Shown: positions 58,901-61,900 of the stretch, piece after piece
How positions within the stretch are numbered: position 1 is the first letter of the stretch
Layout of the letters: the number at the start of each line of letters is the position of its first letter
Assembly: GCF_013167455.1 (NCBI RefSeq)
Contig: NZ_CP038328.1
Direction: 5' to 3' (one strand)
Source of the DNA: Escherichia coli O157:H7
GTDB lineage: Bacteria > Pseudomonadota > Gammaproteobacteria > Enterobacterales > Enterobacteriaceae
DNA length: 64,000 nucleotides
Position numbers: made by a program

Positions 58901-61900
58901 CTTCGGGGCAAGCATCTGAGCCACACCACCCAGTATCATGCTGGCCCCCAGTGAAAACAGCATCGTGGTGGCAGAAAAACCACCGGCTGCCAGGGCTGAA
59001 CCCCATAACGCCATTGATGCCCCGGCAGTGAAGAACGACCCCACGATGGCCGCCGCCCCCAGCACAATCTGCAGTCCGCCTTTCCCTGCACCGGCCAGTC
59101 GCGGCACAATGTGGATGACCGTTCCCTCACCCAGCTGTTCGTGAAGACGGGCGTACACCGCCTCCGGTGCCGTGTCCTCACCGCGAATACGTATCTGGTA
59201 CCAGCCTTCGTTCATCTGACGGCGGAATCCCGGCATCTGCATCGACAGGGCACGGATGGCTTCCGCTGCCGTGTTCACATACAGGCTGAGGCGGCGGCCA
59301 AATCGTTGTAAATCCCCGTGAAGGCAGATACGTGCCAGTGGCGGTGACGCCAGGCTGAATGCGTTCGTCGTTGCCATTTTTCGGAATACCTCTCCCGTTT
59401 ACTCAGTTGTTCAGGCAGATGGTGAAGCAGTTCACCGTTGCCGCAGTAAATGGCGGCATGATTGGCCACCGATGCGCCAAAGCAGCACAGCAGGATATCG
59501 CCCGCCTGTGCAGAGGACAGGGGCACCCGGTAAAAGCCGGTGACCGCCATATTGTCCAGGTAAAGGTTCTGACCGTTGCGCCACCAGTCATCCTCACGCT
59601 CAAAATCCGGCATATCAATTCCCGCCAGATGGTATGCATCCCGGAACAGCGTGTAACAGTCCGTCACCCCGTGCTCAAAGCGCCGTCCTGTCAGATGTGG
59701 CACACAGCGGAATTTATGAATTTCCCCCCGGCAGACCAGCCACCAGGACAGTGCACTTTTTATCTGCAGCCGCCGGTCGGCCTCGCTCAGCCAGGGCAGA
59801 CCACCGGGATGACTGTGGACCAGTGCCACAATCTCCCCCTGCATCTCTGCCCGCAGCCAGTCTTCCGGTGCAATACGAAAATACGCCTCCGGCTCTGCAG
59901 AGATATTCACACACGGCAGATACCGCTCCCCCTCCGGCGTTCTCACCACGAAGCCGCACGACTCCGCAGGCACACACCGCCGGGTGTGTGCCAGAATCAC
60001 TGATTCTGTCTGTGTCATTGGATTTACTGCGAAAGTTTGTTAATGGAAAGGAAACCGCCAAAATTAGCCACCATGCCGCGCATCTCACACCCGCGCATGC
60101 ACTTGCTGCATCTGTCCTTACGGATATCGGTGGTGGGGTTGTCGAACTCATCCGCCACCGCAGGACCGTTATACCCGCATTCATCTCCCCGGTAATCCCA
60201 CATACAGGTGTTCGCCAGCATGATGCGACCAGGAAACAGCGCCCCGTCCGTCTCCGTCGGTGTTGCCAGCACAAACGAGGCTGTCATGGCCGTCAGCTCT
60301 GACATCTGCTCCACCACCCAGCGGTCGCTCAGCTCCTGCTCCGGGTCGGCCTCCGGATTGCCTGCCACAAAGTTCACCGCATCCAGAAAACGCGCATACA
60401 CCCGGCGGCGGACCACCGTGGCACCCACCAGGCTCTGCAAATCCTCCGCCATCCCGGTGACAAGACCGAACAGATTGGACACCGTCAGCGACGGGCGGGC
60501 ACTGCTGCCCTTTCCGTTCATCTCAAAGCCACTGCCGTCAATCGGGTATGCCTGATATTGCCGCCCCTGCCAGGTGACCGCCTCCCCTTTTTCATTCAGC
60601 TCATTGCAGAAAAAATACCGCTCACCACCCTGTACCGTCAGGTCGATTTCCCAGAGTACCACCCGCGGTGACTGCTCTGACTTAACCGACTCGTTCAGGC
60701 TTTCTTCGTGAATATCCTGCATCAGTTCACCACCTGCTCTATCGTGCAACTGAAATCACTGTACCGGGCATTATCCGTGACACTCCACTCACGGCACACA
60801 ACCCTCACCGTCCGGTTATGTTTCGGCGGTCGCCACAAAAAGGCACGGTAACCACCATGCCACGATAAAAACTCTTCCAGCCAGCGCCGGGTTGACTCAT
60901 CCGTCACCCGGAACACCGCCTGAAACGTCTTCAGTTGAGGATTCAGCCCTGTGGGGCGGCGCTGTTCATAACCGTCACCAAACCGCACCCTCACCACCGA
61001 CGGCTTCTCACTCACCTGCATCCCTTCACGCGGGACCAGATGCAGCGTTTTTATCTCAGCCACTCAGCATTCCTCCGTCACGTCGCATGGACAGCATCAC
61101 CGCCTGCACCCGCTGGTCAATCAGCTGCACAAGACTGCCTGCCGCCTCCGGCCCTATCTGGCCATTAGTCCCGTCATTCTGAATGGCGATATGGTAGACC
61201 GGGGAATACACCAGACCCGCACTGCCGTTCATACTACCCACCGCGCGCACACCCAGCGAGCCATCCGCCGCCCGCGTCAGAGGCATAATGGCTTCAGGTC
61301 CGGCCTCCCCCATCAGCCCGGCCCCTTTTGCAAAGGCAAAGTACGTGGGCGTATCCACAATACTGTTGCTGTACGCACTCAGGTTTGCCGAGGTATACAC
61401 GCCGCCTTTTGCATTGGCCACCGCCCCGCCCAGCCAGTCACCAATGCTGCCGAGAAATCCTCCCGCACCGGACATACCGTTTGCCGCCGTCTTAATTCCG
61501 TTGACAATCGCGGCATTCATAAGAACTTTTGATATTTCCTGCAGCACTGATGAGGCCCAGCTGCGCCATTCCACTTTATTCCCGTTCAGCATCTCCGTGA
61601 TGTTATTCACCATCCCTGAGATACCCTCCGTCGCAAGCTGTGCTGCCTGTGAGGCGTAATCGGACGCATTATCCACCCAGTTACTGAACCCCTCCTGCAG
61701 CCCTTTCTGCCAGTCCGCACGCTGCACATCCGATTCGGCATAAAAGGCTGCCTGGTCCTTAAGGCGTTCGCTCAGATACTGCGCGTTCTGTGCCCGTGCC
61801 TGTCTGTAAAAATCCTCACTGATATCCCCGGTCTGATACTGAGACTGAAGGTCCGCATCCTTCTGGCGGAAGCTGTCGCGGATCTGCTGCAACTCCCGCA

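What the first reader, a model, noticed from the sequence alone, without database searches (positions are those of the whole stretch)
59275..59377. About 100-nt out-of-frame overlap between tail assembly genes K and I
The K ORF runs about 34 codons past the I start codon in a different frame. This could reflect genuine overlapping coding, as seen in compact phage tail operons, or a stop-codon loss extending K.
Basis: seen in the sequence. Interest (0 to 1): 0.2.

Follow-up and report, generated by a model that had tools for sequence, protein, structure and literature searches.

The report
Lambda-type K/I tail gene overlap
The 103-base out-of-frame overlap between tail genes K and I is real, but phage lambda and all its close relatives have exactly the same overlap, so it is an ordinary, long-known feature of this tail module.

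Summary
On the minus strand, K (59275..60018, 247 aa, JAB + NlpC/P60) and I (58700..59377, 225 aa, Lambda_tail_I) share 59275..59377. That is 103 nt: one base, 33 K sense codons and the K stop. I lies in the -1 frame relative to K.

Lambda (K 14276..14875, I 14773..15444) and phage 434 have the same 103-nt overlap. So do all 80 IMG/VR relatives examined. The window is 100% identical here to phage Lys8385Vzw.

The overlap is genuine dual coding, not a recent stop-codon loss:
- The K stop and the I ATG are fixed across the group.
- I has its own Shine-Dalgarno sequence inside K.
- Wobble-site diversity drops about 3-fold in both frames.
- Variants that change both proteins are the rarest class.

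Distant relatives (phi80, T1-like, Stenotrophomonas, Pectobacterium phages) overlap by only 8-14 nt. The long overlap is thus an old lambda-subclade trait. It combines a roughly 15-aa C-terminal helix added to K with a roughly 10-aa N-terminal extension of I. I found no frameshift signal. Interest is low and the feature is already known.

The parts
59275..60018 (-). Gene K (tail tip assembly protein K, 247 aa; JAB/MPN peptidase domain plus NlpC/P60 peptidase domain)
   Evidence: ORF. Pfam Prok-JAB 4-105 (E 6.5e-14) and NLPC_P60 111-224 (E 3.3e-13). About 84-85% aa identity to lambda and 434 K. AF2 model with mean pLDDT 87.
58700..59377 (-). Gene I (tail tip assembly protein I, 225 aa; N-terminal ubiquitin-like domain, Gly-rich linker, hydrophobic stretch, C-terminal plug domain)
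   Evidence: ORF. Pfam Lambda_tail_I 15-97. Matches lambda gpI chain 8iyk_I over residues 1-224 with E 2e-94.
59275..59377 (-). 103-nt dual-coding stretch: K codons 215-247 plus stop, and I codons 1-34, with I in the -1 frame relative to K
   Evidence: Same length and position in lambda, 434 and Lys8385Vzw and in the IMG/VR loci. Wobble diversity is reduced in both frames.
59389..59396 (-). Shine-Dalgarno-like GGGAGAGG for gene I, 11 nt upstream of the I ATG, inside K codons for KRERY
   Evidence: Read from the sequence. Conserved as GAGAGAGG in lambda and 434. The 434 record annotates a ribosome-binding site at the same position.
59275..59277 (-). K stop codon TGA, formed by I codons 33-35 (TAT GTG AAC)
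   Evidence: Lambda and 434 have TGA at the same aligned position.
59284..59331 (-). Coding for the lambda-type C-terminal extension of K (predicted helix, residues 230-245), co-encoded with the conserved start of the I ubiquitin-like domain (ICLHGDLQRFGRR)
   Evidence: The K alignment A2 shows distant K proteins ending shortly after R224-H225. AF2 predicts a helix at 230-245 with pLDDT about 79 falling to 54. Residues 231-236 and 238-240 are invariant in 74 sequences (the labels in that output are one too low).

Best explanation
This is the standard K/I junction of a lambda-type siphophage tail-tip module (gene order H-M-L-K-I-J) in a lambdoid (pro)phage. Two genes are read in different frames from one late transcript. 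Ribosomes translating K continue to a TGA that lies 100 nt downstream of the I start. Other ribosomes initiate I on their own at an ATG preceded by a GGGAGAGG Shine-Dalgarno sequence embedded in K codons. This initiation step is inferred.

The first third of the overlap encodes a conserved core helix and strand of K's NlpC/P60 domain. A lambda-specific N-terminal extension of I is written over that part. The remaining two thirds encode the conserved start of I's ubiquitin-like domain. A lambda-specific C-terminal helix of K is written over that part.

The arrangement is inherited. It is shared base for base in position by lambda, 434, Stx phages and many E. coli prophages, and it is maintained by purifying selection on both frames. 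It is not a lesion or a peculiarity of this window.
For: Shown:
- Identical 103-nt overlap in NC_001416 lambda (K 14276..14875, I 14773..15444), in 434, and in Lys8385Vzw, which is 100% identical to the window.
- 81 loci scored 103 nt. Two more (L028, L076) keep the same K stop and I ATG but have a frame-disrupted I gene.
- Providencia phage PSTCR8lys (58% K identity) has a 97-nt overlap and mEp044 (44%) has 58 nt.
- Both proteins' Pfam domains reach into the overlap: NlpC/P60 runs to K224, and Lambda_tail_I starts at I15.
- The window has only one start codon between the upstream in-frame stop and I codon 20 or beyond.
- Third-position diversity is 0.105-0.13 in K-only sequence and 0.13-0.16 in I-only sequence. 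In the overlap it is 0.034 for K3 and 0.046 for I3.
- I-synonymous transitions were seen at 8/32 possible sites in the overlap against 99/187 in I-only sequence, p=0.004.
- Variant classes in the overlap: 13/63 synK/nonI, 12/74 nonK/synI and only 7/156 non/non.
- There is no unusual RNA structure that could otherwise explain the constraint (z +0.35 and +1.08).
- AF2 places K213-225 in the domain core (pLDDT 90-94) and K230-245 in a helix.

Inferred: independent initiation of I at its own Shine-Dalgarno sequence.
Against: There is no direct protein evidence here for the I N-terminus or the K C-terminus. Virion cryo-EM structures resolve only gpI residues about 134-223, and gpK is absent from virions (PMC10721106, PMC12617516). 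The polymorphism tests use related, recombining sequences and small counts. The stratified within-overlap contrasts are only marginal (p=0.06 and 0.20). K-changing variants are commoner in the tail (12/74) than in the K body (67/1453), so the K tail is under weaker constraint than the rest of K.
Confidence: 0.9

Rival explanations
1. The K extension is a passive read-through. An ancestral stop was lost, and the last 15 or so codons of K are tolerated passengers with no function of their own. They appear conserved only because they are locked to the conserved I sequence.
For: Distant K homologues end 14-18 residues earlier, soon after R224-H225. Given the I protein, the K frame stays open this far in 67% of random synonymous recodings. 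K-changing variants are about 3-4 times more frequent in the tail than in the K body. The AF2 tail confidence is only about 79 falling to 54.
Against: The stop position is identical in lambda, 434 and 80 further relatives despite about 22% nucleotide divergence. The tail motif SAFTGI.NDL is kept in the Providencia phage at 58% overall K identity. I-synonymous sites, which are K second positions, are 2-4 times less variable in the overlap than elsewhere in I. That points to selection on the K frame itself.
Confidence: 0.08
2. The annotated I start is wrong. I really begins downstream, so the true coding overlap is shorter or absent.
For: Lambda and 434 have a second in-frame ATG at I codon 14. 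The N-terminal 133 residues of gpI have never been seen in a structure. One record (PSTCR8lys) annotates a much later start.
Against: The window and its 80 close relatives have no alternative start codon before about codon 20 (the only candidate is the ATG). The Pfam domain already begins at residue 15. The ATG and its Shine-Dalgarno sequence are conserved in lambda and 434. Residues 1-13 align between the window, lambda and the Providencia phage. Even a codon-14 start would leave a 64-nt overlap.
Confidence: 0.02
3. The overlap serves a programmed -1 ribosomal frameshift that makes a K-I fusion protein, by analogy with lambda G/GT and with natural TAPI-JAB fusions.
For: I lies in the -1 frame relative to K. 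An A5 run lies immediately before the I ATG in 72 of 76 sequences. Iyer et al. 2006 report prophages in which I is fused to a JAB domain or to J.
Against: No X XXY YYZ heptamer occurs in the K frame in the last 180 nt of any of the 74 lambda-type sequences. The A5 run is absent from lambda, 434, the Providencia phage and mEp044. The I frame is closed by a stop only 3-33 nt upstream of its ATG. I has its own ATG and Shine-Dalgarno sequence. There is no stable downstream structure.
Confidence: 0.01

Closest known systems
Bacteriophage lambda genes K and I (NC_001416/J02459: K 14276..14875, I 14773..15444)
   Same: Same gene order, same domains, same 103-nt overlap, same relative frame, same aligned K stop and I ATG, and the same Shine-Dalgarno position. 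K is about 85% and I about 66% identical at the protein level.
   Different: Only sequence divergence. The lambda reference annotates K as 199 aa because of a one-base frame disruption near codon 45. The window, like 434 and re-sequenced lambdas, has the intact 247-aa K.
K/I junctions of more distant lambda-like tail modules (phi80, T1-like PHB17, Stenotrophomonas S72, Pectobacterium Koroua)
   Same: Homologous K (JAB + NlpC/P60) directly followed by homologous I, with the genes overlapping out of frame.
   Different: Those overlaps are only 8-14 nt, close enough for termination-reinitiation coupling. K there lacks the C-terminal helix and I lacks the N-terminal 10 residues. HK97-like mEpX1 has no overlap, and an extra gene sits between K and I.
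Lambda G/GT programmed -1 frameshift in the same tail operon
   Same: Two reading frames share sequence in a tail assembly operon, and the second frame is -1.
   Different: G/GT uses a slippery heptamer, and T has no start codon of its own. Here there is no slippery site, and I has its own ATG and Shine-Dalgarno sequence.
Overprinted overlapping genes of small phages (phiX174 type)
   Same: Long out-of-frame dual coding with suppressed synonymous variation. Each frame carries a lineage-restricted extension written over an older conserved frame.
   Different: Only the termini of two otherwise separate genes overlap (33-34 codons). No whole gene is embedded in another.

Membership tests
Lambda-type tail tip assembly gene pair K/I | K protein with N-terminal JAB/MPN and C-terminal NlpC/P60 domains | tested here: met
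   Pfam PF14464 at 4-105 and PF00877 at 111-224, both above the curated cut-offs.
Lambda-type tail tip assembly gene pair K/I | I protein with the Lambda_tail_I (ubiquitin-like) N-terminal domain and the gpI C-terminal domain | tested here: met
   PF06805 at 15-97. Full-length match to lambda gpI 8iyk_I, E 2e-94.
Lambda-type tail tip assembly gene pair K/I | Gene order tape measure-M-L-K-I-J on one strand | tested here: met
   The ORFs (61056..63959, 60722..61063, 60024..60749, K, I, 54978..58454, all minus strand) match the annotation of the 100% identical Lys8385Vzw locus and the lambda order.
Lambda-type tail tip assembly gene pair K/I | 103-nt out-of-frame overlap with the I start inside the end of the K NlpC/P60 domain | tested here: met
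Programmed -1 ribosomal frameshift site | Conserved slippery heptamer X XXY YYZ in the upstream frame | tested here: not met
   None in the last 180 nt of K in 74 lambda-type sequences.
Programmed -1 ribosomal frameshift site | Downstream stimulatory RNA structure | tested here: not met
   Fold energies are no better than shuffles, z +0.35 and +1.08.
Termination-reinitiation coupled gene pair (ATGA-type or overlap of about 15 nt or less) | Downstream start within a few nucleotides of the upstream stop | tested here: not met
   The I ATG lies 100 nt upstream of the K stop. Distant relatives with 8-14-nt overlaps do fit.
Dual-coding region under selection in both frames | Reduced synonymous-site variation in each frame relative to the flanking single-coding sequence | tested here: met
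   The I frame is clear: wobble pi 0.046 against 0.13, and I-synonymous transitions 8/32 against 99/187, p=0.004. The K frame shows wobble pi 0.034 against 0.105-0.13, but the K-synonymous variant count is not significantly lower (8/26 against 86/221). Double-nonsynonymous variants are the rarest class, 7/156. The sequences are related, so this is supportive rather than rigorous.
Dual-coding region under selection in both frames | Both protein products experimentally shown to include the overlap-encoded residues | not testable with these tools
   Solved structures cover only gpI 134-223, and gpK is not in virions.

The most novel reading that the evidence does not exclude
The long overlap could be functionally meaningful rather than mere compaction. 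K is the predicted JAB/NlpC protease, and I is its predicted ubiquitin-like substrate. K's lambda-specific C-terminal helix is encoded by the same bases as the first strand of that substrate's ubiquitin-like domain. This could lock enzyme and substrate into co-evolution, or allow a rare -1 shift at the A-run before the I ATG to make a K-I fusion in the Stx-phage lineage.
Probability: 0.03. Interest if true: 0.4.

Novelty: already known. Interest (0 to 1): 0.07.

Why it matters
It matters little. The result shows the window carries an intact, standard lambda-type K/I junction, so the overlap needs no special explanation or annotation flag. There is one modest point of general interest. The overlap is a tidy example of reciprocal overprinting: each gene extended its end over the conserved end of its neighbour. 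It occurs in a pair predicted to act as protease and ubiquitin-like substrate. It also warns annotators not to shorten I or K to remove the overlap, as has happened in at least one deposited record.

Tried and rejected
- Chance test. Synonymous recoding of I keeps the K frame open for at least 33 codons in 67% of trials. ORF length alone is therefore not evidence, and I relied on conservation instead.
- Frameshift-fusion idea. The slippery-heptamer scan was negative, and the A5 run is not conserved in lambda or 434. Rejected.
- RNA structure as the cause of low synonymous variation. Folds of the I initiation region and of the whole overlap are no more stable than shuffles. Rejected.
- Literature. 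I searched for a paper discussing the K/I overlap specifically and found none in the held library. The overlap is documented only through the lambda record annotation.
- Solved structures. No structure covers K beyond a distant JAB match (2kks), and none covers I residues 1-133.
- Loci L028 and L076 first appeared to lack the overlap. They turned out to have frame-disrupted I genes with the junction intact.
- I did not use the large protein-database searches, because the question was settled without them.

Full report
**Observation**

The ORF list and the sequence show two minus-strand ORFs.
- K is 59275..60018 (ATG, 247 aa, stop TGA).
- I is 58700..59377 (ATG, 225 aa).

They share 59275..59377, 103 nt. 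That is the last base of K codon 214, K codons 215-247 and the K stop. It covers I codons 1-34 plus one base. The I frame is -1 relative to K. The coordinates in the finding are exact.

Pfam confirms the gene names. K carries Prok-JAB (4-105) and NlpC/P60 (111-224). I carries Lambda_tail_I (15-97). The neighbouring ORFs give the lambda order: tape measure, M, L, K, I, J.

**Is it more than chance?**

Not on ORF length alone. I kept the I protein fixed and drew synonymous codons at random. The K frame stayed open for at least 33 codons past the I ATG in 67% of 20,000 trials. The meaningful evidence is comparative.

- The 1319-nt K-I stretch is 100% identical to Escherichia phage Lys8385Vzw. It is 94-96% identical to many Stx-converting phages and about 78% identical to lambda-group phages.
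- In NC_001416, K is 14276..14875 and I is 14773..15444, a 103-nt overlap.
- Phage 434 has K 14132..14875 and I 14773..15444, also 103 nt, with an annotated ribosome-binding site 11-15 nt before the I ATG.
- A three-way alignment puts the I ATG, the upstream GAGAGG and the K TGA in the same columns.
- Among the three annotated phage loci (lambda, 434, Lys8385Vzw) and 80 IMG/VR loci found with the K protein, 81 scored exactly 103 nt. The two exceptions, L028 and L076, keep the same K stop and I ATG but have a frame-disrupted I gene.

**How far the overlap extends in the family**

A tblastn search of the phage collection found 1748 records with a K homologue. Sampled junctions:

| Phage | K identity | K/I junction |
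|---|---|---|
| Providencia PSTCR8lys | 58% | 97-nt overlap, once the I start is placed at the homologous ATG rather than the truncated annotated one |
| mEp044 | 44% | 58-nt overlap |
| Stenotrophomonas S72 | 40% | 8-nt overlap |
| Pectobacterium Koroua | 37% | 10-nt overlap |
| phi80 | 34% | 8-nt overlap |
| T1-like PHB17 | 33% | 14-nt overlap |
| HK97-like mEpX1 | 34% | no overlap; a small extra gene with terminators lies between K and I |

Protein alignments explain the difference. Distant K proteins stop shortly after the invariant R224-H225. Lambda-type K continues for about 15 more residues (SAFTGIYNDLAAASACM). Lambda-type I has about 10 extra N-terminal residues (MATTNAFSLASPP). Measured against distant homologues, K therefore has a C-terminal extension. 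That extension is old and is shared by a whole subclade.

**What the overlap encodes**

An AF2 model of K (9-sequence alignment, mean pLDDT 87.3, pTM 0.81) gives three elements in this region.
- Helix 213-218 and strand 219-225 lie in the NlpC/P60 core, with pLDDT 90-94.
- The extension forms a helix at 230-245, with pLDDT about 79 falling to 54.

On the I side, residues 15-34 are the start of the ubiquitin-like domain, including the conserved GDLQRFGRR. The I start therefore lies inside conserved K domain sequence, and the K tail lies over conserved I domain sequence.

**Selection on both frames**

I used 74 distinct lambda-type K-I sequences.
- Third-position nucleotide diversity is 0.105 in K-only sequence (0.13 in the last 200 nt) and 0.13-0.16 in I-only sequence. 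In the overlap it is 0.034 at K third positions and 0.046 at I third positions. Overall diversity is 0.032, against 0.061 and 0.073 in the flanks.
- Of all possible single-base changes in the overlap, those observed were:
  - 13/63 silent in K only;
  - 12/74 silent in I only;
  - 7/156 changing both proteins.
- I-synonymous transitions occur at 8/32 possible sites in the overlap against 99/187 in the rest of I (Fisher p=0.004). Transversions are 4/42 against 110/252.
- K-synonymous changes are not significantly reduced (8/26 against 86/221).
- Splitting the overlap gives the expected asymmetry. In the K-core part, K-silent changes dominate (7/25 against 2/30). In the I-domain part, I-silent changes are slightly commoner (10/44 against 6/38). 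The K residue labels in that output are one too low.

These counts come from related, recombining sequences and are small. They support dual constraint but do not prove it. RNA structure does not explain the constraint: folds of the I initiation region and of the whole overlap are no more stable than shuffles.

**Mechanism**

*Shown:* there are two conserved reading frames. The I ATG is the only start candidate in the window before about codon 20. A conserved GGGAGAGG lies 11 nt upstream, inside K codons KRERY.

*Inferred:* I is initiated independently on the late polycistronic mRNA while other ribosomes finish K. Termination-reinitiation coupling cannot apply, because the I start is 100 nt upstream of the K stop.

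**Frameshifting**

A -1 frameshift producing a K-I fusion was considered because I lies in the -1 frame and an A5 run precedes its ATG. It is not supported.
- No X XXY YYZ heptamer exists in the K frame in any of the 74 sequences.
- The A-run is missing in lambda, 434, the Providencia phage and mEp044.
- The I frame is closed 3-33 nt upstream of its ATG.

**Biological context from papers**

- Iyer, Burroughs and Aravind (PMC1779556) identified the N-terminus of I as a ubiquitin-like beta-grasp domain ending in a conserved glycine. They predicted that K's peptidase domains process I.
- Cryo-EM of lambda resolves only gpI residues about 134-223, as a plug in the tail tip. Neither the structures nor mass spectrometry find gpK in virions (PMC10721106, PMC12617516).
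- No experimental structure therefore covers the overlap-encoded residues of either protein.
- I found no paper in the held library that discusses the overlap itself. It is documented through the lambda record.

**Verdict**

The feature is real and correctly described. It is genuinely dual-coding and entirely ordinary for lambda-type phages. It is already known and of low interest.

Noticed in passing
L001 (NC_001416) about 1265-1277, i.e. lambda 14265-14276; compare L003 (434) 1001-1240: The lambda reference K gene has a one-base frame disruption near codon 45. The N-terminal 44 codons (MTQTES...GEPE) are in another frame, which explains the 199-aa annotation. Independently sequenced lambdas and derivatives (KT232076, LC730321, PV340536, DE3, imm434, imm21) match 287 reference bases over 288 bases. 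The intact K is therefore 247 aa, as in this window. The reference probably carries a sequencing error or a strain-specific deletion.
   Followed up: partly
window 58455-58699, hairpin at 58506-58529 (minus strand): The I-J spacer is 245 nt, against 60 nt in lambda. It contains a strong terminator-like hairpin (10-bp stem, 7 G-C pairs, loop of 4, then CGTTTTTGGG) in the sense orientation of the late operon. A 47-aa minus-strand ORF (58560..58703) also lies here. This may be a small inserted element or a regulatory site.
   Followed up: partly
L004 (Providencia phage PSTCR8lys MW057859) 2127 against 2346: The deposited I gene starts at 2346 (148 aa). Homology to the window's I begins at residue 1, at an ATG at 2127 that overlaps K by 97 nt. 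The record's I start appears truncated, probably to avoid the overlap.
   Followed up: partly
L028 and L076 (IMG/VR contigs), about 2650-2730: These two relatives have frame-disrupted I genes. The reading frame is lost after about residue 70 in L028 and about residue 93 in L076, while K and the junction stay intact. They are likely decaying prophages or assembly errors.
   Followed up: partly
L010 (mEpX1) 2250-2512: In this HK97/HK022-like tail module, K and I are separated by a small hypothetical gene and annotated rho-independent terminators. The K/I junction is therefore a site where extra genes can be inserted.
   Followed up: no
window 59378-59382 (minus strand), directly upstream of the I ATG: An A5 run (GAAAAATG) is present in 72 of 76 sequences of the Stx-phage-like group. 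Lambda and 434 have GACAAATG instead. It probably just gives an A-rich spacer that favours initiation.
   Followed up: partly
window 60019-60023 and 60024..60749 (minus strand): K starts 5 nt after the L stop. The mechanical L ORF begins at a TTG (241 aa), whereas lambda L is 232 aa. The real L start is probably the internal ATG (MQDIHEE...).
   Followed up: no
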